Source: a virus. Taken from it: a DNA stretch of 64,000 bases. Within the stretch, counting starts at the first letter, position 1. Each line of letters begins with the position of its first letter. Both the position numbers and the translations under genes were made by a program. The notes beneath the pieces are model-generated. The model saw only the letters and a program-made list of their open reading frames with translations, was not told the DNA's origin and made no database searches. The stretch covers positions 1 through 64,000 of the IMG/VR virus record IMGVR_UViG_3300034152_000419; one strand, written 5' to 3'. This document shows positions 4,525 to 59,566 of the stretch, piece after piece.

Positions 4525-4527
4525 GAA

Positions 4528-4872: not shown

Positions 4873-5038
4873 CCCTCTCCTCCTCGATGTCATCATATCT
4901 TGACGGATATTTTTTCCTCTTTTTCCGAATGAATCCCGTTTCCGCCTTTGACGGGAGATCCCGGAGTCTCGCCTCCTCAAGTTTCTTGTCCATCGACTCA
5001 ATCGGAGTGCGTTCTTTCGGTGTGTGCCTGATAACCAT
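4859..5038 (-). CDS. small hypothetical protein, 59 aa (not in ORF track)
   Basis: MVIRHTPKERTPIESMDKK...; starts right after the TerL stop; AGGAGAGG RBS. Confidence 0.55.
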   Translation of the reverse strand: MVIRHTPKERTPIESMDKKLEEARLRDLPSKAETGFIRKKRKKYPSRYDDIEEERDDQK

Positions 5039-7862: not shown

Positions 7863-8184
7863 CCGATTCAATCTCCTCAAAATAGGTTCCCCACATTCTG
7901 ACCGTCAGATCGACGACCCCCGTGAGATCCTTTGCCAGTTTCGCTCTCTGAATGTCTCGACCCCGATTGTCCATCGCGAGGATCTCCCATTTTCTCTCGA
8001 TATTGCGTTCGAGTCGGTCGAATTTCCATGCAGTAACTCCCAAAAACACGACCTGAGATATCAAAAATATCAAAAGAAAAAAGATCGCCTCTCGGACCGG
8101 GAGGATGAGAACAGATCCGGTGACATTAAGGACTTGAGTCTCAATTATTTCCCCGTCAATTTCCGTTTCTCTATTATCTCCCAT
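7831..8184 (-). CDS. membrane protein
   Basis: Hydrophobic segment AIFFLLIFLISQVVFLGV. Confidence 0.65.
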   Translation of the reverse strand: MGDNRETEIDGEIIETQVLNVTGSVLILPVREAIFFLLIFLISQVVFLGVTAWKFDRLERNIERKWEILAMDNRGRDIQRAKLAKDLTGVVDLTVRMWGTYFEEIESDVETEKTEDR

Positions 8185-9167
8185 GTCACCTCCTCAGTCA
8201 ACTCCGCGAGTCCGTCCCTTTTCCACATCTGAGCACACTTTTTCGGAGTGAGATGGTCATTGAGCGAGAGACGATGTCTGAGCATCTTGAGCCACCACAT
8301 CGAATCAAGAGCAGTGAGACCCTCTCTCTCCTCAGCGACAATATTGATCATATCTTTTCCGGTTTTCGCGGATTCCAGATAAAACCAGATCGTGTCAAGG
8401 TGATACTCGTCAAGTGCATCACGTCCCTGTCCTGCCTGATTCCATCGGGACAAGATTTTTCCGATTGCCTCCCTGCCGACCTGTGTGTGTTTGTCGAATA
8501 CATACCACGGGAGGGAGACCGTCCTCGGTTTTGTGCGACCATTGACTTTTTTGACCCACCGATCCCGACCTTTTTTCAGATCCTCGTTGACTGCCGCCTC
8601 ATCGAGTCCCCGCAGAAACAAAAGGATCATCCCCGTGAAAGCGAAATATCGATCATTGAGCATCCCGCCTCCGAGAGATCGATTGTGAAAAACATTCATC
8701 GCGTCATGTTCATAGAGGTCGAGTTGCCTCTCATCCGTGCCTTGCATATAGGCAACATAAACCTCGTTGACAACCTTGAGATAATCCCCCTCATACTCAC
8801 GATCTGCATATTTTCTGAAATAACGCAATTCTTTAAATTCAAGATGTTTCGACCGTCCCTTGTGATGGATAAACGACCAGAGTCCCGGACAGTCTTTTGA
8901 TTTTGTCGCGATGCACAGTTTGAAAATAAATTTTTTCCAGTCTGCTTTCAAGCGAGAGTTTGTTGCGAGCAGTTTTGCAAGTTCCCCGGTGAGGTGAAAA
9001 CACTCCTCGATTGTGATCGAGTGCGTTCTCCATCTGAGCCAGTCTCGGTGTTGATCATCCTTTTCCCACAGTGCCTCAAAACAGGTATTGACGAGATCCA
9101 GATCCCCGCGCCTGATTCCTTTTTGTATTCCCGAACGACACCCATAAATGAAATCTTGATCCCACAT
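8145..9167 (-). CDS. MgsA/RarA C-terminal-like helical protein lacking the AAA domain
   Basis: SGIQKGIRRG and LPWYVFDKHTQVGR motifs. Confidence 0.5.
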   Translation of the reverse strand: MWDQDFIYGCRSGIQKGIRRGDLDLVNTCFEALWEKDDQHRDWLRWRTHSITIEECFHLTGELAKLLATNSRLKADWKKFIFKLCIATKSKDCPGLWSFIHHKGRSKHLEFKELRYFRKYADREYEGDYLKVVNEVYVAYMQGTDERQLDLYEHDAMNVFHNRSLGGGMLNDRYFAFTGMILLFLRGLDEAAVNEDLKKGRDRWVKKVNGRTKPRTVSLPWYVFDKHTQVGREAIGKILSRWNQAGQGRDALDEYHLDTIWFYLESAKTGKDMINIVAEEREGLTALDSMWWLKMLRHRLSLNDHLTPKKCAQMWKRDGLAELTEEVTWEIIEKRKLTGK

Positions 9168-40134: not shown

Positions 40135-40554
40135 TTAATACGGATTGACATATCCGCGAACACCCGCCCGACTTGTGATCGGACGAATTTTAACAAACGC
40201 ATTATATTTGATTGCATCGTCAACCGTCCTCACGAATGATCCGCCTCCCGATGCACCGAGAGACAGTTCCCGATTCAAAACAATTTCGACATGAACGACT
40301 TTGTGATTCGAGTTCTCCCAAAAAACGAGGTCCCCCGAATCCGGGATGACGACTTGATTTTCTGAAAACATTTTCCACAGTTGAGCCGCAGTCCAGTCGC
40401 CGCCACGAGCGAGGACGCCGACGGATTTCAAACACTCGATGACCAGACCTGAGCAATCAAACGACGACGGATCATCTCCTCCCCATGTATAAAATTTTCC
40501 CCAGTTCCGCCGCGCGACATCGAGCACGATCTGTCGTTTCTGAGTCTCGTTCAT
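40135..40554 (-). CDS. NlpC/P60 peptidoglycan peptidase, candidate endolysin
   Basis: YTWGG...FDCSGLV...GDLVFW...HV.I. Confidence 0.85.
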   Translation of the reverse strand: MNETQKRQIVLDVARRNWGKFYTWGGDDPSSFDCSGLVIECLKSVGVLARGGDWTAAQLWKMFSENQVVIPDSGDLVFWENSNHKVVHVEIVLNRELSLGASGGGSFVRTVDDAIKYNAFVKIRPITSRAGVRGYVNPY

Positions 40555-41540
40555 TTTTCACCTCCCCCGAAAATAAAGTGACCGTCTGTTTTCCAGTATT
40601 CGAGAAACTCTGTGAGATCCCTCATTCGGTTGACCTCAATCAGTTTTTTTTGTGCTCCGCATTTTTCCCGGATCTTTTCCATCACACCGTTTGTCCTCCG
40701 GGGAGAGGTGACAAAATAATTTGACGCATACTTGAGAGCCTCTGCCTCATCGGAGTGCATATAGACTGCCGTCATCCGGTTTTTGTGGTAATCCTCATAG
40801 CGATAATTATATCCTCTCTTGTCTCCGTGATGAAAAAGCGTCCCCCACGGATAGATATATTTTGAGATCCCCATGACCGCGAGTGTATAATTGACAAAGT
40901 TCTCGCCTCCACCATAGATCCCCAGTGTCGGAGGAAAACCGCCGAGCATAGCAAAGATTTCTCGCGTCATAAGCATCCCACAGAGACTCATGACCGGGAC
41001 CTCAAAAACGTCGTCGTGTCCTTTGAAATTCATAAATTTATAGTGATATTTCGCCGTCTCCTCATCGAAATCCATCTGATAGATCAGACGTTGTTTTTCG
41101 AGGATCTGATATGTGAGAGGGAGAGACAGTGTCCCCGCGAGATCGACATGAGCGTCCTCATAATACATGAACATATCATGGAGAGAGTTTTGTGACGGAA
41201 TCACGTGTCCATCCATGAACCACAGAAACCGACCGGAGGATTGTTTGACTCCCTCGTTTTTTGCTTGCCAGTGACTCAACCGCTCATCATATCTAACATA
41301 TTTGAGCCAGTCGAAAAACTTTGAGACCTGTTTGATGTGTCCCTCTTTTGCTTTCCCGTCTTTGCCGATGTGATCGTGACCTCTGTCCGGTTCGCGACAG
41401 TCGGGACCGTCAATATAATTATCGACCGCGATGATCTCAAAATCCACTTTGTCGATCAGTTGCTCCGCAATCGCCCGGATCGTGAAAGCGATGTTCGCCC
41501 ATTCATTACAAAATGGAATTATTATTGATAGATCACTCAT
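40551..41540 (-). CDS. GT-A glycosyltransferase, ppGalNAc-T-like
   Basis: SIIIPFCNE, FMDGH (DxH), LGGF...IYGGGEN. Confidence 0.8.
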   Translation of the reverse strand: MSDLSIIIPFCNEWANIAFTIRAIAEQLIDKVDFEIIAVDNYIDGPDCREPDRGHDHIGKDGKAKEGHIKQVSKFFDWLKYVRYDERLSHWQAKNEGVKQSSGRFLWFMDGHVIPSQNSLHDMFMYYEDAHVDLAGTLSLPLTYQILEKQRLIYQMDFDEETAKYHYKFMNFKGHDDVFEVPVMSLCGMLMTREIFAMLGGFPPTLGIYGGGENFVNYTLAVMGISKYIYPWGTLFHHGDKRGYNYRYEDYHKNRMTAVYMHSDEAEALKYASNYFVTSPRRTNGVMEKIREKCGAQKKLIEVNRMRDLTEFLEYWKTDGHFIFGGGEK

Positions 41541-41931
41541 CCTTGAATCCTCTGAGTTTTAACAGTTCCCGTTTCAGGATAGGAAAAACGGGGACCAGAT
41601 CGGGAGCAAGTTCGACGACATCCTCCACCTTGATCGAGGCAAAATGGACGACGGTCGATTTCATCATTCGCGCCTGTGTCCCTTTGGGAGTTGCGTCCTG
41701 AACATCCCTGAAAAATCCCGCCGACTTTTTCAAATGTCCATAATAATCAACCGCGAGGGATACAGAGCAGTCGATTTCGAGACCGACAAGTTTCCCGAAT
41801 CTCTGTTTCGACAGTTTCCCGTTTCTGACCGGGACCATCTCCTCCCGTCCGATTTTGCCACCTTGCACACCCCGGATGATCACATCGTTCTCAAATTTCA
41901 GGAGAACATTTTTGAAATCGCTCTGATCCAT
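41533..41931 (-). CDS. hypothetical protein
   Basis: 132 aa; coupled to neighbours. Confidence 0.7.
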   Translation of the reverse strand: MDQSDFKNVLLKFENDVIIRGVQGGKIGREEMVPVRNGKLSKQRFGKLVGLEIDCSVSLAVDYYGHLKKSAGFFRDVQDATPKGTQARMMKSTVVHFASIKVEDVVELAPDLVPVFPILKRELLKLRGFKDE

Positions 41932-41934
41932 GTG

Positions 41935-42558
41935 TCATCCTTTTTTAAATGGGATTTTTTCCAGTATCATGACCCCCTCAAGTTCGAGGTCGAATCTGTA
42001 TTCCATGAACAGGACCCGGAATGAAAACCCGGACGACAGATTGTCCGCGAACTTGTCGAACAAAAAACCCAGTGACGAGATCGGTGAAAAGTGCGCCTTG
42101 TTTCCCGTTCCCTTTGGTTCGATGGGAGTGAACACCGAAACACGATTCCCGATCCCCATTAATTGAATCACATTGAAAATTGAACGGTCCAGATTTCGAC
42201 AGTGTTCAAAAACATGAGACGCATGAATATCAAACTTTTTTCCATGCAGTCCGAGAGAGTGTGTGAGCAGTTGATCGACATCCCCACGTCGAATCCGCAG
42301 TCCCGCCTCACGACCCCGATTGACCCGTTCCCTGACGATCTCAACCCCGATGACATCCGAAATCAAACGAGTCTCAAGCATCGCGAGAATCTCGGTCCCA
42401 TCCCCACAACCGAGCACGAGAACCGGATCACTCAAAAAGTGCGAGGATTCGCGAGCGTTGCGAATCGCACGGAGACCCATCCGGGACGGTCGATCTCCCG
42501 CCTTTGCTCCGCCGCTTGAGTTCGAGCAAAATCTCCTCTGTATCTCCTCATAACTCAT
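41935..42558 (-). CDS. class I SAM-dependent methyltransferase
   Basis: VLVLGCGDG, GVEI, FD...SHVFEH. Confidence 0.85.
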   Translation of the reverse strand: MSYEEIQRRFCSNSSGGAKAGDRPSRMGLRAIRNARESSHFLSDPVLVLGCGDGTEILAMLETRLISDVIGVEIVRERVNRGREAGLRIRRGDVDQLLTHSLGLHGKKFDIHASHVFEHCRNLDRSIFNVIQLMGIGNRVSVFTPIEPKGTGNKAHFSPISSLGFLFDKFADNLSSGFSFRVLFMEYRFDLELEGVMILEKIPFKKG

Positions 42559-42890
42559 TTAAACACCTTGACCGTGACCTGTCCGATTGAGAAAAATGAA
42601 TCCGATCCGATTGTGAGCATGTATTGTCCCATCGAATCAGATCCCGCCGTCAGTATCAGACCGAATGTCACCTCCGTGCCGGGAGGGATCGGTTTGATGT
42701 GTGTGATACTCATCGAGACACAGACCGCTTTGTCACCGAGAGATCTCCACACAGTATCATTGACCAGAGCACACAGGAGACCATTCGGGACCTGACGTCC
42801 CTCGCGATATTTTTCTCCGATCAAGTCCCCATAAGCCTCGATCATCTCCGATGTGACAGTGAATTTTCTTTCGACTGAGTTCATCCCCAT
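42555..42890 (-). CDS. hot-dog fold (MaoC-like) protein
   Basis: VT..MI.AY, VPNGLL, IKPI.PG.EV. Confidence 0.55.
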   Translation of the reverse strand: MGMNSVERKFTVTSEMIEAYGDLIGEKYREGRQVPNGLLCALVNDTVWRSLGDKAVCVSMSITHIKPIPPGTEVTFGLILTAGSDSMGQYMLTIGSDSFFSIGQVTVKVFK

Positions 42891-44173
42891 GTCTCCGAAT
42901 CCCCGAAAATCGGGAGATAATGTCGATTATAAATATAATCCCAGTTGTGAAATTGCCGATGAAAAGTTTTGCAGTTGATTGATTCATTCTCTCTCATCCG
43001 CCCGACGATCAGTGCCGCGACGAGATCAAAATATTCCCGCTCTGAAACTGCGTGTTTCGGTTTCACCTCGAACGATCCGAAATTGACAAACAGGGATGAG
43101 AATCCGTGAACCTCAAGCATCATGTCGAGCGACTTGTTGAGCACGACCAGACATCCCCCCGCGAGAGCCGCCTCAAGTCCGATCAGACCGAATGACTCCT
43201 CCTGTGTCGGATAGATCATCACATTCGAGCACATCAAAAGTTCCCGGACCATTCTGATCGGGACCCCTGTTTTATATTTTTCTGAAAACCGGGATGTGAA
43301 AAAGAACTCCTGACGTGTGAGTCCGTTCCGCATCGCAATCCTCTCAAAATGCTCGACGTCCTGCATAGGTTCCCGACCCGTCGCCCATGAGTTACAGACA
43401 CACAGACACACCGAGAATCCCATTTTTTTGAACGCTCGAAAAAGAATAATCACATCTCGGAGATGTTTTGCCTTGAGCCTGTCCGATCCGACCGGATAGA
43501 TCTGAACGATGTCCGATTGCAGGAGACCCGGATAATTTTTAATCAAAAGATCCGTCTCAGGATCGAACTCCATAAACGACCGGAGATCTTTGATGTGAGG
43601 GATCACTTTCACGTCCGCGACTTTGCACTGATATGCAGTCGCGACCCGGAGAGCGTCCGTCTTGTTCGGATAAATGAGTTTGTGTCCGGGACCATATCTT
43701 TTCAGATTCCACCAGTCAAAACCCTGAGCCGGGAGAGAGTGAATCCAGTGTAAATATTTTATCAGATGTCCCTCCCTCCGCAGTTCCCGACCGGACTCCA
43801 TCAACGCGAGAGCATAGGGGAGATTCCATCCCGTGAAAACAAAATCGTGAGTGAAAACGAAATCAGATCCGGGGAGGATATTTTTCAGCACGTGTGAGAT
43901 CTTTTTGACGTCTGCCTTGTGCTCCTCGGAGATCTCTTTTTCGCTCCGGTAGTCAACAAGATCCGGTTGAGGTAGAGCCGGAAAAACCTCGACCCCCAGT
44001 TCCCGGAAAAACTTTTCACCCCGACTCTCATCGTTGAATTGTTCGGAGACGACGACACAGACATCGTGTCCGTGTTCGGTGAGCATCCGGCATTGATCCT
44101 TGACAATACCAGTCAAAGAATATCCCGGATGGAAATCGGTGAAATTTGTAAGGATGGAAATTTTCTTTTTCAT
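42881..44173 (-). CDS. GT-B (GT4-like) glycosyltransferase
   Basis: GHDV.VV; YPTQEESFGLIGLEAA. Confidence 0.85.
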   Translation of the reverse strand: MKKKISILTNFTDFHPGYSLTGIVKDQCRMLTEHGHDVCVVVSEQFNDESRGEKFFRELGVEVFPALPQPDLVDYRSEKEISEEHKADVKKISHVLKNILPGSDFVFTHDFVFTGWNLPYALALMESGRELRREGHLIKYLHWIHSLPAQGFDWWNLKRYGPGHKLIYPNKTDALRVATAYQCKVADVKVIPHIKDLRSFMEFDPETDLLIKNYPGLLQSDIVQIYPVGSDRLKAKHLRDVIILFRAFKKMGFSVCLCVCNSWATGREPMQDVEHFERIAMRNGLTRQEFFFTSRFSEKYKTGVPIRMVRELLMCSNVMIYPTQEESFGLIGLEAALAGGCLVVLNKSLDMMLEVHGFSSLFVNFGSFEVKPKHAVSEREYFDLVAALIVGRMRENESINCKTFHRQFHNWDYIYNRHYLPIFGDSETWG

Positions 44174-50081: not shown

Positions 50082-51503
50082 TTACGGTCTCCACGCAATT
50101 TCGACCAGTGCGACGGGGGATCTAACATTTGCGACATTGTCAATGTAACACTGCAAAAAGTCTCCCGCAGAGAGATCAACATTCGCCGCCGCATTTTGAG
50201 CACCGACGACCGCAGAGAGTGACAATGTCAGGATGTCCGTTGCGACGTCGTTTTTTCGGACGTTGAAATCGACTGTCCCGGACGCATTGAGTTGACCGGA
50301 GATCCCGACAATCGTCGCATCACGGAGCATCCGCAGACCGGAGAGATTCGACTGAATGTCCCCTCCGTAGTGATTGAGATATTGATCTTTTGACCTGCCT
50401 TTTTTCCCGAACGCGACCATGACCCTTTGAACCGAGAGCCATTTTGCACGAGTCGCATCGTAAATGCAGAGAATCCCGGACTTGACCGCGAGTTGTCCGT
50501 CCGCGAGTCCTGTCGAGGGGAGAGATGCTTTCGGGACGATCTCAAAGGGAGCATTTGTCGCCGATCCCGTGTCAATTTTAACCGATCCGGCATCTGCATT
50601 GATGACCCGTCCGTTTCCCGCGCCTCCCTCGTCATAAGCCTCATCGAGAGTGTTTCCAGATATCGCGGAGATTGCCGAATATAGATTTCCGATCTCCGTG
50701 TCAATCTCACTGATCACCGACTCAAGGTCAGTCGTGCTCAAATAGGTATATGTCCCCTCGACATCAATCTCAGAGGCGTCATGTTTGCTCGCCCCTCCGT
50801 CAAGGTGTCCGCCGAAATCGACGTCGCCGATTTTTTTCCACGAGGCGGAGGTCGTGTCATAGATATATTGAGCCTGTTTGCCGTCCCCATCGTCGTTGAC
50901 GACGACTGCATCATTGTCAGAGTTGACCCCCTCCGCCGACCACGTTGAGCCGCCGAAAGTGTAAATCTCCTCATTTGCGTTCGCGAGGTTGATGACACGA
51001 TCACCCGTTGACGCCGCTCCGAGATCATCCCATGAAACACCATTATATTTATAATAGTGATTGTCATCGGTGTCCACGTAAACATCCCCGGTTTGTGCTC
51101 CTCCCGGAGGTGACGCCGAAATATCGAGGACACGATATTGAACCGGATCAAGCCACGTCGGGGACCCGAACGATGGAGCATTTTGAATATTGTCCCAGTC
51201 AACGGACGCCTGACCGGATGTTTGCAGTTGTGTCTTTGTGTAAAATGTCGCGAGCGTGTTTTGTTTCTGATCCAGTGTGAGGAAATTCACACCGTCCGCC
51301 GCAGAAAGATCCGAGGACCCGTCATTGACGACCAGATCCCCTGACTGAACCAGAGCACGGAGATCGTCGGATTCTGCGATTTCGGGAAAAGTGAATGAAT
51401 CTGAAAATGTGATCTGTGTTGCATCGAGGACTGTGATTCCGAGATCCTCAATCGCCTGATCACTTCCTGAACTGTTTTTGATTATCACTGTCCACATCGC
51501 CAT
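50082..51503 (-). CDS. virion fibre/appendage protein
   Basis: Gly/Ser/Asp-rich; shared N- and C-terminal modules. Confidence 0.75.
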   Translation of the reverse strand: MAMWTVIIKNSSGSDQAIEDLGITVLDATQITFSDSFTFPEIAESDDLRALVQSGDLVVNDGSSDLSAADGVNFLTLDQKQNTLATFYTKTQLQTSGQASVDWDNIQNAPSFGSPTWLDPVQYRVLDISASPPGGAQTGDVYVDTDDNHYYKYNGVSWDDLGAASTGDRVINLANANEEIYTFGGSTWSAEGVNSDNDAVVVNDDGDGKQAQYIYDTTSASWKKIGDVDFGGHLDGGASKHDASEIDVEGTYTYLSTTDLESVISEIDTEIGNLYSAISAISGNTLDEAYDEGGAGNGRVINADAGSVKIDTGSATNAPFEIVPKASLPSTGLADGQLAVKSGILCIYDATRAKWLSVQRVMVAFGKKGRSKDQYLNHYGGDIQSNLSGLRMLRDATIVGISGQLNASGTVDFNVRKNDVATDILTLSLSAVVGAQNAAANVDLSAGDFLQCYIDNVANVRSPVALVEIAWRP

Positions 51504-51528: not shown

Positions 51529-51969
51529 TTAAATTCTCCACGCAATCTCCGCCGATATCACGGGATAATCGACCTCCCCCGATGTCATTTTCAACCGGAG
51601 CACGTCATCCTCGTTAATATCGACATCGGTGACAAAGACATCGCCACGTTCGCCGATCACCGAGAACTGATACACCATGACCTCGGACGGACTGCGAAAC
51701 ACGAGAATCTGAAATGTTCCACTTGCAGAGGACTTGAACTCGACTGTCACTCCTGTGATTGTGGCATCCCTTGGAATCCGATATCCGCAATTATTTGAAA
51801 CAACACCCCCGTCGATTTTCAGATATCGCGGAGGTCTGATTTTCTTGTGGTTCGCACCGAACAGAAAAACTTTTGTGTCACTGAGCCATTTATCCCGAAA
51901 ATCATCATAAAAATAAAGGACCCCGTCGTTTCCCTGCCTGAAATTTTGTGTGTGTAAGTCTCTGAGCAT
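51529..51969 (-). CDS. virion accessory protein (shared KWLS...AWR module)
   Basis: YD..R.KWLS...RDATI.G...EIAWR. Confidence 0.7.
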   Translation of the reverse strand: MLRDLHTQNFRQGNDGVLYFYDDFRDKWLSDTKVFLFGANHKKIRPPRYLKIDGGVVSNNCGYRIPRDATITGVTVEFKSSASGTFQILVFRSPSEVMVYQFSVIGERGDVFVTDVDINEDDVLRLKMTSGEVDYPVISAEIAWRI

Positions 51970-51978
51970 CGTTCCCCC

Positions 51979-51994
51979 GTGAACACGTGTGCAC
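51979..51994. repeat. palindrome copy 9 (1 mismatch, GTGAACACGTGTGCAC)
   Basis: Read directly; intergenic. Confidence 0.85.
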
Positions 51995-52374
51995 TATTTT
52001 TGACCCGGAGGTTCCGCATGTCTGACATCGAGTCTTTCGATCTGCCTCTTGAGTTTTTCGTTCTCCTGTTTCAGTTCATCAATTCTCTTTTCTATCTTTA
52101 GATATTCAGACTCCGCGACTTTTCGGGATTCCGACGGAGTCGTGATCGACCTCAGACTCCCACTGAGAAACATGATCAGGATCGTGACTGCAACCGGGAT
52201 GAAACCCGCGACCAGACCCCACATTCCCGCCTTGACCTTGAGAATCGTCTGCTCGATCTCAAACTCCCGGAGTCTCGTACTGAGAGCCTCGATGCAACCG
52301 TTGAGTCTTTCAAGTTCAGACAGGACATGACGTCCCCATTCTGTCCACCCGTTCGTTTCCGGCATCTCATTCAA
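51994..52374 (-). CDS. membrane protein with flanking coiled coils
   Basis: TM segment GMWGLVAGFIPVAVTILIMFL. Confidence 0.7.
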   Translation of the reverse strand: MNEMPETNGWTEWGRHVLSELERLNGCIEALSTRLREFEIEQTILKVKAGMWGLVAGFIPVAVTILIMFLSGSLRSITTPSESRKVAESEYLKIEKRIDELKQENEKLKRQIERLDVRHAEPPGQK

Positions 52375-52931
52375 TCCTCGTCCTCGAACCGTGCCTCGGT
52401 GACAATAGGTTTCGACCGGAGCAGTCCTCTCTCACTTTGCGGACAAGGCATATAAACACTTACGATATAACAGTCCTCGATAGCCTGAAAATTATGAGGT
52501 GTCTTTGACGGGACATAGATTGAACGACCCTGAGCGACAGTGTAAATTTTCGCCTGACCCCCCGGAGGACACATCTTGATTGATGCACTGCCTCGAACGA
52601 CGGAGATGTGTTGAATCTCTCCCTCATGGTAGTGAGTTTTGAGCCTGTGTCCCTTTGGAATCAATGACCTCTCGATTCTGAGAATCCCGTCAAAGTATAG
52701 AGGAAAAACCTGAATCTCGGACTGTTCTCCCCTGTCAGTCTGCATCGTATAGGATGACGGACCGATTGATGACCCCACAATCTCTGACGCCGGGACCCCC
52801 TTGAGTTGACTCGTCAACTCCCTGAGTTTTGTTAAATGCTCACTCGTCTGTCCCAGTTCACACGCGAGATCATCCGCCTTTTTTGACGGTTTCCTATGAA
52901 CAAGCATCTGAATTATATTTGACATTTTCAC
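52371..52931 (-). CDS. cupin-domain protein
   Basis: HYHEGE...V.G...YVP..PH. Confidence 0.75.
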   Translation of the reverse strand: MKMSNIIQMLVHRKPSKKADDLACELGQTSEHLTKLRELTSQLKGVPASEIVGSSIGPSSYTMQTDRGEQSEIQVFPLYFDGILRIERSLIPKGHRLKTHYHEGEIQHISVVRGSASIKMCPPGGQAKIYTVAQGRSIYVPSKTPHNFQAIEDCYIVSVYMPCPQSERGLLRSKPIVTEARFEDED

Positions 52932-52945
52932 TCCTCTCCCTCCAT

Positions 52946-53599
52946 TTAATTTTTCACAAAAACAAGCATCGCGAAAGTATAATTCAGATCATTCACCCTG
53001 ACAATGGGACGACCCACTCGCGGGATTTCCTTGTTCGACAAAAGTGTGAATCCACTTTGATTCGCAATCGTGACCATCTCTTTGAGTTCATTCCGGTCGA
53101 AAATAGTCCACGGGAGACCATTGAGTTCGGTTGTGTTTATCTTTTTTGACCAGTAATCAGTTGTAATAAAAAGCAGTCCCTCCCGTTTAATAAGTCTTTC
53201 GCAGATCTTGAAAAACTGATTGACAGCAATTCCGTGTTCAATCACCGAGACGCATGTGACGAACCGAAACATCTTGTCGCGAAAAGAGTTGTCCTCGAAC
53301 CTCCCCCTGAGAATCCGAGCGAAATTCTGTTTCTTGTCCTGCGTGAATTTCGAGACATCGTCATATCTATCAATCCCGAACATTCGTCGAAATCCCATCG
53401 CACGGAGCATCTTTAAAGTTGCGAGCATCCAACAACCGACATCGAGGATCGGAGCGTTTCGATGTCTCCCCTCAAGGATCTGATATAATTTCGACAGATC
53501 CCAGTTTTTCAATCTGTCCCGGTGAACTGGCAAATTTTTTGATTTCAAAAATCTGACAGCATCGTCAATCTCTTTTTTTGATCTCAGAATTTCGATCAT
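52946..53599 (-). CDS. class I SAM-dependent methyltransferase
   Basis: ILDVGC, GID, VTCVSVIEHG, GLLFITTDY. Confidence 0.85.
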   Translation of the reverse strand: MIEILRSKKEIDDAVRFLKSKNLPVHRDRLKNWDLSKLYQILEGRHRNAPILDVGCWMLATLKMLRAMGFRRMFGIDRYDDVSKFTQDKKQNFARILRGRFEDNSFRDKMFRFVTCVSVIEHGIAVNQFFKICERLIKREGLLFITTDYWSKKINTTELNGLPWTIFDRNELKEMVTIANQSGFTLLSNKEIPRVGRPIVRVNDLNYTFAMLVFVKN

Positions 53600-54342
53600 C
53601 TCTCGAACCTCGATTTCAGTGGAAACAACTCAGTGATAACTTGAATCAGATCATCGTTGAGACCTTTGTCGTTGTGATTCATGAATTGAACGTGAGGTGA
53701 CAGTATTATCTCAAGGATCTCCCTCTGAGTCAATTTTTTACTGAAACCCGCGACCCATCCATCATGAATCTCCGCCTCCTGTCCGTCAAAAAAGTGATTG
53801 AAATATAACGTCTCCCAGTTGAAACCGTGTGACGTTCCATATCTCGTCACGATGTCAACATAAAAACTTTTGTGAACCAGTTTCGGGACGTGTGTTTCAT
53901 AATTATATATCCGATCCGTCTTTCCCTTGAGAGCCTGAACAGTTCTCCAAAAAAACGAGGTCCATCCCTTTTTCAGTCTCGTCGGGATCTCCGAGTCTGT
54001 GAGATCTGCGAGAGCATAATTCCGCGAGACCTCTTTGATCCCTGTCTTTTTCATGAGATAGAAATCATCGCACATATACAAAAACGGATCACTGACATCG
54101 TCCACAAAACACGCCTTGAGCAGTTTTTCCGAGATCAGACGGTTTCTTTGTTGTGCTCCCCCGACCCATCCTCTTTCAGGGATCAGATTCAGATCTCCCG
54201 ACCACTCAGGACGCCTCTCTCCGATGAGATAGACATTTCGCAGATCCTCAAAGTACTTGAACAGGGATCGGAGAGAATATTTCAACTCCTCCCCCCAGTA
54301 TGAGGTTGACCGACAATATGGATAAACTGCATCAATTTGCAT
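53596..54342 (-). CDS. Stealth-like sugar-phosphate transferase
   Basis: IDAVY (CR1), ELKYSLRSL...P.W...FLYMCDDFY (CR2), H.P; start re-set to MQIDAV. Confidence 0.7.
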   Translation of the reverse strand: MQIDAVYPYCRSTSYWGEELKYSLRSLFKYFEDLRNVYLIGERRPEWSGDLNLIPERGWVGGAQQRNRLISEKLLKACFVDDVSDPFLYMCDDFYLMKKTGIKEVSRNYALADLTDSEIPTRLKKGWTSFFWRTVQALKGKTDRIYNYETHVPKLVHKSFYVDIVTRYGTSHGFNWETLYFNHFFDGQEAEIHDGWVAGFSKKLTQREILEIILSPHVQFMNHNDKGLNDDLIQVITELFPLKSRFER

Positions 54343-55192
54343 CGATGAAAACCATCTCCTCGACCGTCGGTGACATCGAGTCGAGGACATCTTTGAATTT
54401 TCTCCTCTGAAACATAATCTCGGCATCGTTCATGCCGTAAGTGATCAGGAGGTCCTCTCCGTCTCTGACCAGACCACAAGGGAAAATATGCCATTTGCCG
54501 AACTCAATCGGAGTCTTTGAGTATTTCAAGATCTGAAACGGAGGTTCCGCAGAGAATAGCATCGCACCGACGAAATAAACCCGATTGATCGCCCGGAGAA
54601 AATGAGGTGTCGCTCTGTGTTTCGGCATCCATAAATGACTCTGAAATAAGCACAGATATCCCTCGTCAATTCTGATCGGAGATGTCCCCCCGTGCGCCCA
54701 TCCCCACACCCATTCGTTCATCCCCGGAGATCTCCACTGTTCACGAGTCTCCACATCAAAGACGATCTGAGGTGTGACCATGTAATGAGCCATTAAACGT
54801 CCGTTATATTCAAAAAATGTCCAGTTTTTCTCTGTGCGTTTGCCAGTCTTGACAATCTGTTTCCCGGAGACTTTCCTGACTGCGTTGACCTTGCAATATC
54901 CCATCTGAGCAAAAACAAAAGAGTTTCGTCCGGGAGGGGAGTCAACATAGGCGAGATATAACTGACCATTGAACCAAAAAAACCGAGGGTCCTCCGCCCC
55001 TTTGATCACCCTGAACTCTCTCCGAACTCTCAGAGTCCGCATATCGAGGGGTCCCATATAAATTGAACCACAGAGTCCCCAGTCGTCCTCGTCTTTGCGA
55101 TAGGCAATCCACATCCGATCTCCGACCTTTGCGAGTGTCGCATTGTAAGCACCTTTTGACAGACCGGGAGTGATGACTTTGTGCAATATCAC
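54332..55192 (-). CDS. GH130-like beta-propeller glycosidase/phosphorylase
   Basis: YNA, EDPRFF, EKNWTFF, HGG.SP, IFPCG, YG..D; GTGA overlap start. Confidence 0.7.
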   Translation of the reverse strand: MILHKVITPGLSKGAYNATLAKVGDRMWIAYRKDEDDWGLCGSIYMGPLDMRTLRVRREFRVIKGAEDPRFFWFNGQLYLAYVDSPPGRNSFVFAQMGYCKVNAVRKVSGKQIVKTGKRTEKNWTFFEYNGRLMAHYMVTPQIVFDVETREQWRSPGMNEWVWGWAHGGTSPIRIDEGYLCLFQSHLWMPKHRATPHFLRAINRVYFVGAMLFSAEPPFQILKYSKTPIEFGKWHIFPCGLVRDGEDLLITYGMNDAEIMFQRRKFKDVLDSMSPTVEEMVFIDAN

Positions 55193-55818
55193 CCGGACAC
55201 CTCCGCCGCTTGAATCTTTTGATTGAATCTCGCGTTCGTTTCCTTGTTGAAAATCCGGGACCATTTTTTCGGTTCATTCTGTGCTCGTTTCCTGAACCAC
55301 TCATCCGCAGAGCACCGAGTCCCGTGTTTCTTGAGAATGAACCTCGGAATATATGCAAGTCGTCCCCGTTCAAGTGCTTTCCACATCATGAACAGATCCT
55401 CCCGGACAAGGGGAGTTTCCACGAACTCCTCAAGGATCGAGATCAGAAAATCAGTCTTGAAAAGCACACGAGCCGTCGCCGACTGCGTCCATCCCCGACC
55501 TTTGATGAGTTTCTTTTGTTCTCCATCATGACGGATCGACCAGAATAAAAGAAAATCGAGATCCTCGAATCCGCTCATGTCATCGGGAAAATGTCCGATC
55601 AGTTCGTCATCACTGTCCAGACAAAAAACCCATTTCGTCCCGATCTTGTAAAGTTCATTGAGTCTTTTGTGTCCGATAGTTTCCACTTGCCAGTTGACAG
55701 GATCAGAGATCCCCACCATCCACGGGAGATCCGCCGCATATTTCAGGACCCCCTTTCGCGTTGCCGGAGAGAGCAGATGATCAGGAGCAATTACTGTCGA
55801 AAGAGTGGTGTCTCTCAT
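55189..55818 (-). CDS. GT-A-like glycosyltransferase
   Basis: WVFCLDSDDEL (DxD) and EDL motif; start re-set to MRDTT. Confidence 0.6.
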   Translation of the reverse strand: MRDTTLSTVIAPDHLLSPATRKGVLKYAADLPWMVGISDPVNWQVETIGHKRLNELYKIGTKWVFCLDSDDELIGHFPDDMSGFEDLDFLLFWSIRHDGEQKKLIKGRGWTQSATARVLFKTDFLISILEEFVETPLVREDLFMMWKALERGRLAYIPRFILKKHGTRCSADEWFRKRAQNEPKKWSRIFNKETNARFNQKIQAAEVSG

Positions 55819-56372
55819 TTTGAATACATTTTCCGAACTTGTTGAATTTTCCAGACATGAGGAAAAGCGACCCCCGGAGGATCGACCCCGATGAATGGAC
55901 AAAGTTTTTCCCATCCATCCCCCGCACAAATGTTCATGATCAGGAGATCTCCGGGACGGTCTCTGAAATATGATCGAACATAAGCCTCATGACGATCCCA
56001 CGCATCAAAAAACACCTCCTCATCGAACCATCGACAGCCATAAACTCGATTGTGAACATAGATCGTCCATCTCCGGGTTTTCGGTCCCTTTGGAAAAGGT
56101 TTCGTCGAAAAGAACTCCCGACAGTTTTTCAACCATTCCGATTTTTCCCTCGTCGTCAGGATAAATTTCGATCCCGGATATTTTTGATCAAGCCACCGAA
56201 ACCGCATCGTCACGGACAGATCATCTGAAAAGTCCGCCTCATCGATTGCCTTGACATTGACCGGGAGATGAACAGCACTGAATCCCAAAATCCGAAAAGC
56301 ATGAGACAAAGACGTCGTCCCAGTTCTTGAAAGTCCGATTCCGAAAACCTTTGTCCATCCACGATCAACCAT
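55815..56372 (-). CDS. sulfotransferase (P-loop, Sulfotransfer_4-like)
   Basis: KVFGIGLSRTGTTSL, YPGSKFILTTR, GWEKLCPF. Confidence 0.85.
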   Translation of the reverse strand: MVDRGWTKVFGIGLSRTGTTSLSHAFRILGFSAVHLPVNVKAIDEADFSDDLSVTMRFRWLDQKYPGSKFILTTREKSEWLKNCREFFSTKPFPKGPKTRRWTIYVHNRVYGCRWFDEEVFFDAWDRHEAYVRSYFRDRPGDLLIMNICAGDGWEKLCPFIGVDPPGVAFPHVWKIQQVRKMYSK

Positions 56373-56384
56373 CGATCCCCCCTA

Positions 56385-56834
56385 TCAACTCGGACTCGGT
56401 GACGGCGACGGACTCGGTGACGGCGACGGACTCGGACTCGGACTCGGTGACGGACTCGGAGACGGTGACGGCGACGGACTCGGACTCGGACTCGGTGACG
56501 GACTCGGTGACGGTGAGGGGGATGTCTCACCGAGCAGTTCGTCGAGTTTTGCCTCGATCTCATTGAGTTGTGCCTGAATCGCGTCAATGTCAGTTTGCAG
56601 ATCCGCGACGTCGGATTCGATGGAATCGACTGTCGATTGCAAGTTTGAAACCGCCGTCTGTAAAGCATCGACGTCGGACTGTAAACTCGCGAGATTCGTC
56701 GTCAGTGTGTCAACATTCGCATCGATTGTGTCGATTTTTGACTCAAGAGTCGTGATCGTGTCGAGGATCTCCGCGACTGTCGGATCGACATAAACCTCGC
56801 CGGATCTGACACTATTGTTTCCAGTGTCGAGCAT
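56385..56834 (-). CDS. coiled-coil fibre protein with C-terminal (SP)22S tail
   Basis: About 12 regular heptads, then 45 aa of alternating Ser-Pro; GAGGAGG RBS. Confidence 0.85.
   Translation of the reverse strand: MLDTGNNSVRSGEVYVDPTVAEILDTITTLESKIDTIDANVDTLTTNLASLQSDVDALQTAVSNLQSTVDSIESDVADLQTDIDAIQAQLNEIEAKLDELLGETSPSPSPSPSPSPSPSPSPSPSPSPSPSPSPSPSPSPSPSPSPSPS
56388..56522 (-). repeat. 6-bp period Ser-Pro coding repeat
   Basis: Mixed Ser codons (TCA/TCG/AGT/TCT/TCC) with mostly CCG. Confidence 0.95.
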
Positions 56835-56847
56835 TTTCGACCTCCTC

Positions 56848-57957
56848 TTAAATGACCCCCGCTCTCAGTTGAACTTTGTTGCTCGTTCCGTTGATCTCCG
56901 TGACATGCAGACCGACCTTTTTTGCACCGTAAACATCCCACGCGAGCAGAGGTGAGACATATTTCCCGTTTGAATCGACGAATTTCGCAGTCCCCATCGC
57001 AGTTGATTTCGTCGGGAGGATTGAATAATTGTTTTGATCGAGAGAGGTATATTCCATCACGATCAGAGCATTTGAGAGACCTCCCGGTTTTGCATAAGGT
57101 TGAACGTCTTTCGCAGATCCCTCCCATGCCGCCGAATAAAACAAAATCCCGACATTGTTTCCGTTCGCGAATCCCGCACGACTGACGACCTCTTTGAACG
57201 GAGTCGTGATATCTGCGACCTCGTCCCGACCGTTTGAATTAATAAAGGACGTCACCCCGTCCAGATAATATCGAGAATCCCAGTTGACCGGAGTCTTGAG
57301 CGACAGTCCCGAAAACAGATCATCCGGGTCCGCCGGGAGTGAGGCATCGTCCACATCGAGCAGAGCAATTCTCATATTTGTCGGATTGTCTGCCGCATCG
57401 TCAATCGCGTCAACGAGTTTGAGAACGACCCGTGTGATATCATCGACCGGGACCGGGAGTGTGATCTCCCACAGACCTATTGATCGATACTCATAATTGC
57501 TCGCGAAAAAACCCGTGAAAAATGTATTGATCGAACTCCCCCAGTTATAGGTTGACCCGCCGTCGTCCGTGTATGCCGATTTATGTCCCGTGTTATATGT
57601 GCCGATCAACTCGACATTTGTCTCTGACGCCTCATTTGACTCATTGACAGCGACAGGAGTGATCAGGACCTCCCCGTCGTTTGCGTCATGCAGTGCCTCG
57701 ACAATTAGGACCCGCTTGTCTCCCATCTCAACGAGATTGTCGGTGAGTTCGGACGGGAGACTCGACAGATCGACACCGTCCGCCGCATCAATGGGAGTTC
57801 CGATCCCCCGGATCTCGTTGAGTGTGACCTGACGATATGCGAGATCGACAAGTTGAATCACCCTGTCGAGGGATTCTGCGTCCTGCTCATAGGCATCACG
57901 TGTCGCGACATAGTCGCCCGTCCTGTCATCACTGACTCTGATTGCTTGTTCAGCCAT
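56848..57957 (-). CDS. putative virion structural protein
   Basis: Acidic, beta-rich; tail region. Confidence 0.65.
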   Translation of the reverse strand: MAEQAIRVSDDRTGDYVATRDAYEQDAESLDRVIQLVDLAYRQVTLNEIRGIGTPIDAADGVDLSSLPSELTDNLVEMGDKRVLIVEALHDANDGEVLITPVAVNESNEASETNVELIGTYNTGHKSAYTDDGGSTYNWGSSINTFFTGFFASNYEYRSIGLWEITLPVPVDDITRVVLKLVDAIDDAADNPTNMRIALLDVDDASLPADPDDLFSGLSLKTPVNWDSRYYLDGVTSFINSNGRDEVADITTPFKEVVSRAGFANGNNVGILFYSAAWEGSAKDVQPYAKPGGLSNALIVMEYTSLDQNNYSILPTKSTAMGTAKFVDSNGKYVSPLLAWDVYGAKKVGLHVTEINGTSNKVQLRAGVI

Positions 57958-57973
57958 TTTTCATCTCCCTTGT

Positions 57974-59566
57974 TTAAAACCAATATGTCGGAGTGTCCAC
58001 CATTCTGACTCGTCCATTCCTGATCCTCTTTGCTTCAATTCCGGTGATCGTAGGACTCCCCGGTATTACATGAGCCGTGTAAGACACACCCTCATTCGGA
58101 CCCATGATCCACTCTCCGAAATCAATCGGAGGACTTTCGTTGTCATTTACAATAATATACCATTTACCGGAATCCGGGGGGTCCCACACAAGAGATCCCG
58201 TTTCCAGAGGGGGTGCACAAGTCCACGACCCATCGGGCCAAAAATAGTTGTCGGCAGCAATATTTGAGCACCCGTTGACCGACTGGACAGAGGTTTTCCA
58301 GAATTGAGTTAATCTGAGATTATTTCCATAATTATAAGCCTCATTTGATCCGTCCCATATCGTGTCGGGGAAAAAAGCGTTCCCGTAGAAATAACCTCTT
58401 TCCTCTCCCTCAAGTGTACCATAAGGATCGTAAATCGCGGACCACTCAGACGTATAATGCTCTTTCACTTTGAGTCCGAGATTCCAGTTATAAGTGACGA
58501 CCGGGATCGACCTCGTCTCCCCCTCGTCAGGATGTCCGGGAGGGATCACGAGTGTGCGATATGACAGACCATCGATAAAACTTGACCATGAGATCTCATC
58601 CCATATAATATCAATGAGAGAAAGAGCAGAATCGACGTTCCGAGTACAGACCCCATTTCCAGAGGGGAGTGACGAGGTTGTAAATTCACCACACTGACAT
58701 CCCGGTTGCAACCATTCTTGATTCATGCCGTAATAATAGCCGACAGTCCTCGTGCCGCCGCTTGTAGCATCGTAAGTGACAGTAAATGGGATGATATCAT
58801 CGTCTCCCCCATATTCAAAATAACAGAACATAAACTCAAGTCCTGCGTATCTATAATTTGTCCGAACCGTGCCGGAAATTTCACCCCTGTCTCCCTCATA
58901 TCTATTGACGGTCTCGTTGCAGTTGTCATCGAGGTCCTTGTCGCTAAAATTAGAAAAGGGAAAATCAGGATGACTCTCATCGAGCAGTTTTGAATTTCCC
59001 GGAGAGATCGCACGGACTCTGCCGAGACCGAGAAACACAGGTTCGTCATAGTCAATCGCCTGTAAAAAGAAATTTCCGACGACTCCCTCCGTATATCCCT
59101 CGGAGACCCGATCCTTGTCACAGGGAACATATTGAGGACCGACGACTCTTTCGACTCCCTCGGTGTCCGTGTATTTCATATAAATCGCCTGTCCCCCATA
59201 AACTAAGGGATTCCCGTCAATGGACAGATCAATCCAAAAATTCGCGCCACATCGACGAGGTTTTCCGTCTTGATGTCCGATGATCCATCTCTCAGGAGTC
59301 TCGTCCACGATTGCATTTTTGCTCAACACAAGCACGTTGTCCCCGATTTCAAATGCCGAGTGACCATAGGGGGACGGAGTTGTTTCTCCCTCGCAGTGAT
59401 AATGAAACTCAACTCCGGTGAGTGTCCCATATTCCGCAGTCTCAACCGTCGCGTCATTGTTCACCGTGTCGATTGCCGTGATCGTTCCCACGACGACAGT
59501 CGTCCTGTGAACCTCGTTCACCTCGTCGAGCAGAAATTTTATATTTTGATGAGGTCTGTCAACCAT
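57974..59566 (-). CDS. putative baseplate/receptor-binding protein
   Basis: OB-like N-terminus (GTITAID...FHYHC...AFEIGD.VLV); variable C-terminus. Confidence 0.6.
   Translation of the reverse strand: MVDRPHQNIKFLLDEVNEVHRTTVVVGTITAIDTVNNDATVETAEYGTLTGVEFHYHCEGETTPSPYGHSAFEIGDNVLVLSKNAIVDETPERWIIGHQDGKPRRCGANFWIDLSIDGNPLVYGGQAIYMKYTDTEGVERVVGPQYVPCDKDRVSEGYTEGVVGNFFLQAIDYDEPVFLGLGRVRAISPGNSKLLDESHPDFPFSNFSDKDLDDNCNETVNRYEGDRGEISGTVRTNYRYAGLEFMFCYFEYGGDDDIIPFTVTYDATSGGTRTVGYYYGMNQEWLQPGCQCGEFTTSSLPSGNGVCTRNVDSALSLIDIIWDEISWSSFIDGLSYRTLVIPPGHPDEGETRSIPVVTYNWNLGLKVKEHYTSEWSAIYDPYGTLEGEERGYFYGNAFFPDTIWDGSNEAYNYGNNLRLTQFWKTSVQSVNGCSNIAADNYFWPDGSWTCAPPLETGSLVWDPPDSGKWYIIVNDNESPPIDFGEWIMGPNEGVSYTAHVIPGSPTITGIEAKRIRNGRVRMVDTPTYWF

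What the first reader, a model, noticed from the sequence alone, without database searches (positions are those of the whole stretch)
52946..56834. Coiled-coil fibre with a (Ser-Pro)22 mucin/extensin-like tail heading its own glycan-building operon
Seen: a 149-aa gene at the end of the tail block encodes about 12 regular heptads (I/V/L core, no signal peptide) and then (SP)22S. Five different Ser codons are used, which points to selection on the peptide rather than DNA slippage alone. It is followed by an overlap-coupled run of sulfotransferase, DxD glycosyltransferase, GH130-like, Stealth-like and methyltransferase genes. Known: Ser/Pro-rich tracts are classic O-glycosylation acceptors, and some actinobacteriophages glycosylate their virions. 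Inference: a virion whisker carrying a sulfated/methylated/phosphoglycan bottle-brush for shielding, adhesion or mimicry. I know of no described phage system combining these parts.
Basis: partly seen in the sequence, partly recalled or inferred. Interest (0 to 1): 0.88.

Follow-up and report, generated by a model that had tools for sequence, protein, structure and literature searches.

The report
Phage Ser-Pro-tailed fibre beside glycan enzymes
An uncultured soil phage encodes a small coiled-coil protein ending in 22 Ser-Pro repeats, followed by six soluble sugar-, sugar-phosphate-, sulfate- and methyl-transferring enzymes, and its capsid and tail proteins end in threonine runs, so it probably sugar-coats its own particle in an unusually elaborate way, though no sugar has been measured.

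Summary
ORF 56385-56834(-) has a strong RBS and encodes about 12 heptads followed by (SP)22S. Next come coupled genes for a Sulfotransfer_4 enzyme, a GT-A/GT2-fold protein, and GH130-like, Stealth-like, methyltransferase and cupin proteins.

Three corrections:
- The gene sits inside the tail/fibre block, not at its end.
- No promoter marks an operon of its own.
- The tract carries a 48-nt DNA repeat with skewed codon use.

The fibre is an orphan, and the cassette is absent from 43 related viral records. However, the same phage, just outside the window, ends its major capsid protein, head-tail adaptor, a 63-aa protein and its major tail protein in poly-Thr. In relatives, such tails co-occur with a GT4 gene (9/9 tailed records against 0/16 tail-less).

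The fibre's genomic slot is also informative. In one relative it holds a Ser/Gly-tailed protein, a sulfotransferase-like gene and a Stealth-like gene. In another it holds mucin-like Thr-rich proteins.

This is best read as an elaborate variant of the virion O-glycosylation known from mycobacteriophages, with the SP tail as one of five candidate acceptors. Earlier notes from this scan describe similar cassettes on unrelated phage DNA. All chemistry is inferred.

The parts
56385..56834 (-). 149-aa acidic coiled-coil protein with a C-terminal (SP)22S tail. Heptads are at nt 56523-56774, the SP tract at 56388-56522, and the stops are TGA then TAG.
   Evidence: no homologue found
55815..56372 (-). 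PAPS-type sulfotransferase (Sulfotransfer_4) with the loop GLSRTGTTS; its ATG lies 12 nt after the fibre stop, in the same frame
   Evidence: E 6e-27; 1578 homologues, mostly bacterial; a 39% homologue sits in a bacterial polysaccharide cluster
55189..55818 (-). 209-aa GT-A/GT2-fold glycosyltransferase-like protein with LDSDDE; ATGA overlap with the sulfotransferase stop
   Evidence: No Pfam hit; ESM Atlas structure TM 0.70-0.74, with all ten top clusters PF00535; relatives of 85% and 73% identity in Logan assemblies
54332..55195 (-). GH130-like five-bladed-propeller enzyme (beta-mannoside phosphorylase/synthase family)
   Evidence: 28.7 bits against cut-off 26; nearest solved sequences are Lin0857 (E 0.008) and the Uhgb_MS mannoside synthase
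53596..54342 (-). Stealth-like putative hexose-1-phosphate transferase (IDAVYPY, EELKYSLRSL, MCDD, HVP, NHND)
   Evidence: family features from PMC1285062; a 28-30% homologue in the same slot of G006
52946..53599 (-). Class I SAM methyltransferase
52371..52931 (-). Cupin_2 protein with HxH..E metal motif (possibly a sugar isomerase/epimerase; function not shown)
51994..52374 (-). 126-aa protein with one TM helix and a short coiled coil, overlapping the cupin gene by 4 nt; role unknown
   Evidence: KD19 2.35
56848..57957 (-). 369-aa upstream protein of unknown fold. Its homologue in G006 ends in SSSGGSGSSGGGGGG; in G011 the homologue is followed by mucin-like Thr-rich proteins.
   Evidence: AF2 model unusable
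42881..44173 (-). Divergent GT4-like (GT-B, E-x7-E region) glycosyltransferase, lineage-conserved; candidate enzyme for the poly-Thr tails
40551..41540 (-). GT2 glycosyltransferase whose best solved match is polypeptide GalNAc-transferase 10; conserved together with the GT4
41533..42890 (-). 132-aa conserved protein, a second methyltransferase (41935-42558) and a 111-aa protein, lying between the GT2 and the GT4

Best explanation
The window is part of a 76.8-kb uncultured soil siphovirus. This phage belongs to a lineage that puts hydroxy-amino-acid tails on many particle proteins and glycosylates them in the host cytoplasm with its own soluble enzymes.

The 149-aa gene encodes a short, very acidic coiled-coil stalk, probably a dimer or trimer. 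Its 45-residue (SP)22S tail is an extended, unstructured acceptor.

The six coupled genes after it form an accessory cassette, specific to this phage, that builds or tailors an anionic, decorated glycan. The proposed steps are:
- sugar or sugar-1-phosphate transfer by the GT-A and Stealth-like enzymes;
- beta-mannosyl extension by the GH130-like enzyme;
- sulfation from host PAPS;
- methylation.

The SP tail is the most likely cassette-specific substrate. The poly-Thr tails of the capsid, adaptor, 63-aa protein and tail tube are served at least by the conserved GT4/GT2 pair at 40.5-44.2 kb. The product would be a glycan-bearing whisker on the distal tail or fibre region, used for shielding or adhesion.

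Shown: gene anatomy, enzyme families, solubility, coupling, tails, and tail-GT4 co-occurrence. Inferred: every chemical step, the acceptor, and the fibre's presence in virions.
For: - Anatomy and enzyme identities.
- All cassette enzymes lack TM segments. No flippase or polyprenyl-phosphate transferase was identified among the ORFs scanned at 39-64 kb.
- Poly-Thr tails sit on the MCP (phrog_1623, 8e-106), adaptor Ad1, a 63-aa protein and the major tail protein. The same four proteins carry tails in many relatives.
- Tails and GT4 co-occur 9/9 against 0/16. Both traits change four times on the MCP tree, always together. The GT4+GT2 pair also lies next to T-tailed ORFs on three of five MAG contigs.
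- Positional analogues: in G006, a Ser/Gly-tailed homologue of the upstream gene is followed by a sulfotransferase-2-like gene and a Stealth-like gene. In G011, the slot holds a 141-aa protein with a ~70-aa (T6-VAP)n tail and a LamG-like mucin protein.
- A homologue of the sulfotransferase lies in a bacterial polysaccharide cluster.
- A soil strain carries an in-frame 18-nt length variant of the tract.
- Precedents: glycans on the C-termini of mycobacteriophage capsid and tail-tube subunits (Freeman 2023, as cited in PMC12619734); Stealth proteins as hexose-1-phosphoryl transferases and sugar-1-P-Ser in Dictyostelium (PMC1285062); GH130 enzymes with transferase activity (PMC12814180).
Against: - The fibre has no detectable homologue, so its link to the enzymes rests on adjacency in one phage plus near-identical strains.
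- The cassette is absent from all 43 related records, including tailed ones, so it is dispensable for the lineage.
- No promoter ties the fibre to the enzymes.
- The Stealth assignment is below Pfam's cut-off, and the CR4 motif C[LI]ND is replaced by NHND.
- Homologues of the sulfotransferase work in bacterial surface-polysaccharide clusters, which also fits host-glycan modification.
- Nothing shows that the fibre is a virion protein.
- (SP)n tracts elsewhere are plain linkers (L002, L003).
Confidence: 0.5

Rival explanations
1. The cassette elaborates the glycans that the conserved GT4/GT2 pair starts on the poly-Thr tails of capsid, adaptor and tail tube. The SP-tailed coiled coil is an unmodified structural whisker or spacer that merely lies next to it.
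For: Four poly-Thr acceptors exist, and their link to GT4 is the only co-occurrence actually measured. The fibre is an orphan. SP tracts act as linkers in other viral proteins.
Against: In G006, which has no Thr tails and no GT4, a sulfotransferase-like and a Stealth-like gene still sit in this slot, right after a Ser/Gly-tailed protein. A free C-terminal 45-residue SP tract links nothing.
Confidence: 0.2
2. The enzymes modify host envelope glycans (LPS, EPS or capsule) during infection, for example to block superinfection or to aid release. The fibre is unrelated to them.
For: The nearest sulfotransferase homologues are bacterial, and one lies in a polysaccharide cluster with GT2, GT4 and a ligase-like membrane protein. 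Stealth proteins are best known from capsule synthesis (PMC1285062).
Against: The genes sit in the middle of the late virion array, coupled to structural genes. They have no membrane segments and no flippase, ligase or initiating phosphoglycosyl transferase nearby. The genome is full of tail-type acceptors.
Confidence: 0.15
3. The 149-aa protein is not a virion part. It could be an assembly factor, scaffold or chaperone for the neighbouring fibre genes, or a target of Ser-directed phosphorylation, with a disordered SP tail.
For: It is small, lacks any recognisable attachment domain, and matches only generic coiled coils, including scaffold, spanin and XhlA models. A kinase-bearing MuF protein in this genome was noted by other readers of this scan (untested).
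Against: Its position is among distal tail and fibre genes. Positional analogues in relatives are mucin-like surface proteins. The tract length varies in frame.
Confidence: 0.1
4. The enzymes hypermodify phage DNA bases.
For: Phage glycosyltransferases and methyltransferases often act on DNA (general knowledge; PMC12619734).
Against: The replication module (helicases, primase, recombinase, exonuclease) lies at 5-24 kb, about 28 kb away. Nothing in the cassette scans looked like a base-hydroxymethylase or nucleotide-metabolism gene. Sulfotransferase, Stealth and GH130 enzymes are not known DNA-modifying enzymes.
Confidence: 0.03

Closest known systems
Mycobacteriophage virion O-glycosylation (Che8, Corndog, Myrna; Freeman et al. 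2023, Cell Host Microbe 31:1216; not held here, cited through PMC12619734 and PMC13313380)
   Same: Phage-encoded soluble glycosyltransferases (and methyltransferases), with acceptor sites at the C-termini of the capsid and tail-tube subunits. Here the MCP ends in T5 and the major tail protein in T13.
   Different: The host is not an actinobacterium by current hints. There are five tailed proteins instead of two. A separate coiled-coil protein carries a Ser-Pro rather than Thr tail. The extra sulfotransferase, Stealth-like and GH130-like enzymes are not, to my knowledge, part of the mycobacteriophage systems. No chemistry has been measured.
Stealth hexose-1-phosphoryl transferases and sugar-1-phosphate-Ser 'phosphoglycosylation' of Dictyostelium and Leishmania (PMC1285062)
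   Same: A Stealth-like enzyme next to a Ser-rich repeat. The CR1-like IDAVYPY and the CR2 core EELKYSLRSL are present.
   Different: The protein is much shorter (248 aa), scores below Pfam's cut-off, and has NHND in place of CR4's C[LI]ND. No Stealth protein has been shown to act on a phage protein.
Serine-rich-repeat adhesins of Gram-positive cocci with GtfA/GtfB (from my own knowledge, not tested here)
   Same: Cytoplasmic O-glycosylation of long Ser/Thr repeats by a GT4-family enzyme, followed by GT-A enzymes that extend the glycan.
   Different: Those substrates are exported cell-wall adhesins with their own secretion system. The profile search with the phage GT4 retrieved only generic GT4 structures at E about 0.04.
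GH130 beta-mannoside phosphorylases/synthases and GT108 (PMC12814180, PMC10913872)
   Same: Pfam GH130 above the cut-off. The nearest solved sequences are a Listeria Lin0857 protein and a gut-bacterial 1,2-beta-mannoside synthase.
   Different: Very distant (E 0.008). Catalytic residues were not checked. A phage-encoded member in a virion operon is not among the described cases I found.
Coiled-coil virion whiskers such as T4 fibritin and phi29 head fibres (from my own knowledge)
   Same: A short heptad-repeat stalk encoded among structural genes.
   Different: There is no foldon or attachment domain and no sequence similarity. The C-terminus is a low-complexity tail, not a folded domain.
Plant extensin and arabinogalactan-protein (SP)n glycomodules (from my own knowledge)
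   Same: Ser-Pro dipeptide repeats as dense O-glycosylation sites.
   Different: Plants need prolyl 4-hydroxylase first. No such enzyme was identified here (the cupin is Cupin_2, not a 2OG oxygenase by Pfam).

Membership tests
Stealth protein family (PMC1285062) | CR1 motif IDVVYTF or very similar at the N-terminus | tested here: met
   The protein starts MQIDAVYPY. The G006 homologue has a variant (FIVCYPW), and mycobacteriophage Reptar3000 gp6 starts MDVIYPV.
Stealth protein family (PMC1285062) | CR2, about 100 residues and the most conserved region, detectable by Pfam PF11380 | tested here: inconclusive
   E 8e-7 and 29.7 bits, below the gathering score of 39.4. phrog_7999 scores 7e-17.
Stealth protein family (PMC1285062) | CR4 tetrapeptide CLND or CIND | tested here: not met
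   The corresponding conserved block reads MNHND here and FNHND in G006. G006 has a faint Stealth_CR4 hit, E 0.009.
Sulfotransfer_4 (PF17784) | Profile match above the curated cut-off and a PAPS 5'-phosphosulfate-binding loop | tested here: met
   95.2 bits against a cut-off of 22.8. GLSRTGTTS lies near the N-terminus; the loop's role is from general knowledge.
GH130 (PF04041) | Profile match above the curated cut-off | tested here: met
   28.7 bits against 26. PDB Lin0857 matches at E 0.008. Catalytic residues were not examined.
GT-A fold / GT2 glycosyltransferase | Rossmann-like GT-A fold with a DxD motif | tested here: inconclusive
   No Pfam or NCBIfam hit. My own AF2 model reached pLDDT 42. 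The ESM Atlas model (pTM 0.80) aligns to ten GT2 clusters at TM 0.68-0.74, and LDSDDE is invariant in three homologues.
Mycobacteriophage-type virion O-glycosylation | Phage-encoded glycosyltransferases plus Ser/Thr acceptor tails at the C-termini of capsid and tail-tube subunits | tested here: met
   The MCP ends ...PNPTTTTT and the MTP ends ...VTTTTTTTTTTTTT. GT4, GT2 and GT-A genes are present.
Mycobacteriophage-type virion O-glycosylation | Glycans shown on virion proteins by mass spectrometry or staining | not testable with these tools
   Uncultured phage; sequence only.
Coiled-coil virion fibre | Uninterrupted heptad repeat with a hydrophobic core | tested here: met
   12 heptads at residues 21-104, with the core occupied only by I, V and L.
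Coiled-coil virion fibre | Presence in the particle and a defined oligomeric state | not testable with these tools
   There is no homologue with known location, and no multimer modelling is available.

The most novel reading that the evidence does not exclude
The phage makes a proteophosphoglycan-like whisker. The Stealth-like enzyme would transfer sugar-1-phosphate directly onto the serines of (SP)22. That linkage is so far known only from Dictyostelium, Leishmania and relatives. The chains would then be beta-mannosylated by a GH130-type synthase, sulfated from host PAPS and methylated. The result would be a dense anionic brush on a bacterial virus, the first sulfated or phosphoglycosylated virion protein of any phage.
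Probability: 0.12. Interest if true: 0.9.

Novelty: new variant of a known kind. Interest (0 to 1): 0.62.

Why it matters
Virion glycosylation has been shown experimentally only for actinobacteriophages, where it affects antibody recognition. This genome suggests that environmental phages of other hosts do the same on a larger scale, with five tailed proteins. It also suggests a chemistry not described for any phage particle: sulfate, phosphodiester and methyl decoration.

The system is compact and directly testable. It consists of one 149-aa acceptor and six small soluble enzymes, and could be co-expressed in E. coli and read out by intact-mass MS. If confirmed, it would add a new class of post-translational modification to phage biology and provide portable enzymes for building anionic glycopeptides. 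It would also change how phage surfaces are modelled with respect to adsorption, aggregation in soil, and host mimicry.

Tried and rejected
- Homologues of the fibre: none in 43 related IMG/VR records and none at similar length in 5.8 billion protein clusters. A full HMMER scan of 1.8 billion representatives returned only long repetitive coiled-coil proteins, with no orthologue. The two IMG/VR hits (L002, L003) match the SP tract alone, inside unrelated giant proteins.
- Cassette relatives: single-protein and alignment scans of IMG/VR and JGI metagenomes found nothing for the sulfotransferase or the GT-like protein. P0159's own contig was not retrievable.
- Stealth-like loci L154 and L155 are not syntenic and were uninformative. 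The mycobacteriophage Stealth-like gp6 sits upstream of the terminase with no obvious tails.
The Logan contigs holding the 65-85% relatives (P0002, P0003, P0157) therefore could not be read.
- AF2 models of the GT-like protein (pLDDT 42) and of the 369-aa upstream protein (pLDDT 33) were too poor for fold search, which I did not run.
- Read-through fusion of the fibre to the in-frame sulfotransferase is rejected. There are two different stops in tandem, and TGA is the commonest stop in the genome (55 of 89).
- DNA-modification reading is rejected on gene position.
- No RNA holder was listed among public runs.
- The independent-pairs test for tails against GT4 has only 2-4 pairs and cannot reach significance.

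Full report
**What is there**

The window is bases 1-64000 of a 76,828-bp linear IMG/VR viral record that CheckV rates 74% complete. Nearly all genes run on the minus strand.

ORF 56385-56834(-) has AGGAGG upstream of its ATG and encodes 149 residues:
- a 20-residue head;
- 12 uninterrupted heptads (residues 21-104) whose core positions hold only I, V and L;
- then exactly (SP)22S.

The folded part has 22 acidic and 3 basic residues and nothing like a signal peptide or TM helix. In six-frame translation of the whole genome this is the only Ser/Pro tract, so it is not a chance feature.

Three details qualify it:
- AGT and TCA make up 18 of 23 Ser codons.
- AGT is four times over-represented relative to the genome, and CCG is 21 of 22 Pro codons against 54% genome-wide.
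- The tract has a 48-nt higher-order unit repeated 2.7 times at 92% match.

The tract therefore grew by DNA duplication of a unit that already mixed codons. Selection on the peptide is plausible but not the only signal.

**The genes behind it**

| Coordinates (-) | Identity | Evidence |
|---|---|---|
| 55815-56372 | Sulfotransfer_4 | E 6e-27 |
| 55189-55818 | 209-aa GT-A/GT2-fold protein with invariant LDSDDE | No Pfam hit; ESM Atlas model aligns only to GT2 clusters, TM 0.68-0.74 |
| 54332-55195 | GH130-like | Above Pfam's cut-off; nearest solved sequences are a Listeria protein and a 1,2-beta-mannoside synthase |
| 53596-54342 | Stealth-like | CR1-like IDAVYPY; CR2 hit below cut-off; phrog_7999 7e-17; CR4 motif changed to NHND |
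| 52946-53599 | Class I methyltransferase | |
| 52371-52931 | Cupin_2 protein | |

Junctions are +12, -4, -7, -11, -4 and +14 nt. None of the enzymes has a TM-like segment.

The fibre follows the 369-aa gene 56848-57957 after 13 nt. Promoter-like and terminator-like sites across 51-58.5 kb are at the level of shuffled sequence. The fibre is therefore one gene in a long late array, not the demonstrable head of its own operon.

It is also not at the end of the tail block. A tail protein (phrog_6079) lies upstream, and an Mtd_N-type fibre with paralogous fibre modules lies downstream.

**The wider context changes the picture**

Just outside the window (L004 = 64001-76828), four proteins end in poly-Thr encoded by mixed ACA/ACG/ACC codons:

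| Protein | Family hit | Tail |
|---|---|---|
| Major capsid protein | phrog_1623, 8e-106 | T5 |
| Head-tail adaptor Ad1 | phrog_477 | T12 |
| 63-aa protein | none | T17 |
| Major tail protein | phrog_807 | T13 |

The same four proteins carry Ser/Thr tails in many IMG/VR relatives found through the capsid protein, and lack them in others.

A divergent GT4-like gene at 42881-44173 has homologues in 8 of 43 related records, and all eight are tailed. None of 15 tail-less records of at least 69% completeness has it. Nor does G006, where the syntenic region is present.

Counting the window, that is 9/9 against 0/16. On a capsid tree, both traits need four changes and always change together. That yields only 2-4 independent contrasts, too few for a sign test.

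A GT2 gene at 40551-41540, whose best solved match is polypeptide GalNAc-transferase 10, travels with the GT4 in most of these records. It does so again on five MAG contigs, three of which also show T-tailed ORFs.

This matches the pattern reported for mycobacteriophages, where glycans sit on the C-termini of capsid and tail-tube subunits (Freeman 2023, read only through PMC12619734).

**How specific is the fibre-cassette link?**

- The fibre has no homologue in related records, in the large protein collections, or among HMMER representatives.
- The whole 52.4-56.8 kb cassette is missing from 17 fully fetched relatives.
- No Sulfotransfer_4 gene occurs in any of the 43 records.

The genomic slot, however, is informative:
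- **G006** is a tail-less relative that shares the fibre module. There the homologue of the 369-aa gene ends in SSSGGSGSSGGGGGG. It is followed at once by a 237-aa protein that the ESM Atlas places among sulfotransferase-2-like proteins, and then by a Stealth-like gene 28-30% identical to ours.
- **G011** is 96% complete and tailed. There the same slot holds a LamG-like protein with long (T5-7-VAP/LPP)n regions and a 141-aa protein whose last ~70 residues are (T6-VAP)n, just upstream of the GT4 cassette.

So small or modular proteins with hydroxy-amino-acid repeats recur at this position. A Ser-rich tail with sulfotransferase-like and Stealth-like genes has arisen at least twice, using non-orthologous sulfotransferases.

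**Other evidence**

- Soil-metagenome runs from one study hold a near-identical strain. The enzymes are about 98% identical, but the coiled coil and the 369-aa gene only about 92%. Contigs break inside the tract, and one contig has an in-frame 18-nt deletion, equal to three SP units.
- The nearest relatives of the sulfotransferase are bacterial. A 39% homologue lies in a polysaccharide cluster with GT2, GT4 and a ligase-like membrane protein. This points to a sugar substrate, but also keeps a host-glycan reading alive.
- The replication genes lie about 28 kb away.
- Stop-codon use is standard, so the in-frame sulfotransferase is not a read-through fusion.

**Mechanism proposed**

Soluble phage enzymes act in the cytoplasm on unstructured C-terminal tails before or during assembly.
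- The conserved GT4/GT2 pair serves the poly-Thr tails.
- The accessory cassette builds a charged, decorated glycan, most probably on the adjacent SP tail. The candidate steps are Stealth-type sugar-1-phosphate transfer, GT-A and GH130-type extension, sulfation and methylation.

Literature shows that Stealth enzymes make phosphodiester-linked glycans and that sugar-1-P-Ser exists in Dictyostelium (PMC1285062). It also shows that GH130 enzymes can act as mannosyltransferases (PMC12814180). Every chemical step here remains an inference.

**Verdict**

This is a new, more elaborate variant of phage virion glycosylation rather than a categorically new system. The SP-tailed fibre is one of five candidate acceptors.

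Notes from this scan describe comparable cassettes on unrelated phage DNA, for example Stealth + GT + sulfotransferase next to Ser/Pro-rich proteins. I treat those as untested leads.

The decisive missing comparison is the Logan contigs of the 65-85% relatives.

Noticed in passing
L004 (genome 64001-76828): 7385-8320(-), 6505-7089(-), 6301-6492(-), 4474-5034(-): The major capsid protein, head-tail adaptor, a 63-aa protein and the major tail protein all end in poly-Thr (T5, T12, T17, T13) with mixed Thr codons. Tails on the same proteins recur in many IMG/VR relatives and co-occur with the GT4 gene (9/9 against 0/16).
   Followed up: yes
window 52300-58000 against soil runs X1-X3: Divergence from a co-occurring strain jumps from about 2% (enzyme cassette) to about 8% (fibre coiled coil and 369-aa gene) exactly at the SP tract, and assemblies break inside the tract. 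This could be a recombination joint or faster evolution of the surface genes.
   Followed up: partly
window 56463: One soil-run contig carries an in-frame 18-nt deletion (three SP units) in the tract, i.e. a length polymorphism.
   Followed up: partly
window 56373-56387: The fibre ends in TGA TAG, and the sulfotransferase ATG is in the same frame 12 nt later. Stop usage (TGA 55, TAA 31, TAG 3) argues against a read-through fusion.
   Followed up: yes
G011 record (L101 2522-4284, minus strand): A 446-aa LamG-like protein with N-terminal and internal (T5-7-VAP/LPP)n mucin-like regions, and a 141-aa protein ending in about 70 residues of (T6-VAP)n, lie between the homologue of the 369-aa gene and the GT4 cassette.
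   Followed up: partly
L158-L162 (MAG contigs): The GT4+GT2 pair occurs on five contigs binned as Deltaproteobacteria, Desulfobacteraceae, Thermodesulfobacteriota or Proteobacteria, with GC from 39 to 65%. Three show T-tailed ORFs within 10 kb. This is only a weak hint about hosts.
   Followed up: partly
window 51529-51969, 50082-51503, 47882-49753: Several fibre-region proteins share a C-terminal ...EIAWR[PI] ending and N-terminal modules (also noted by another reader). G006 has the same set at 36-54% identity.
   Followed up: partly
L003 7550-8776(+): In an unrelated viral contig, a 739-aa protein with Pro/Ser/Thr-rich linkers is followed by a 408-aa protein that looks to me like a prolyl-hydroxylase-type oxygenase. 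I did not test this.
   Followed up: no
window 41935-42558 and 42555-42890: A second methyltransferase and a 111-aa protein lie between the conserved GT2 and GT4 genes. They are specific to this genome among the 17 fetched relatives.
   Followed up: partly
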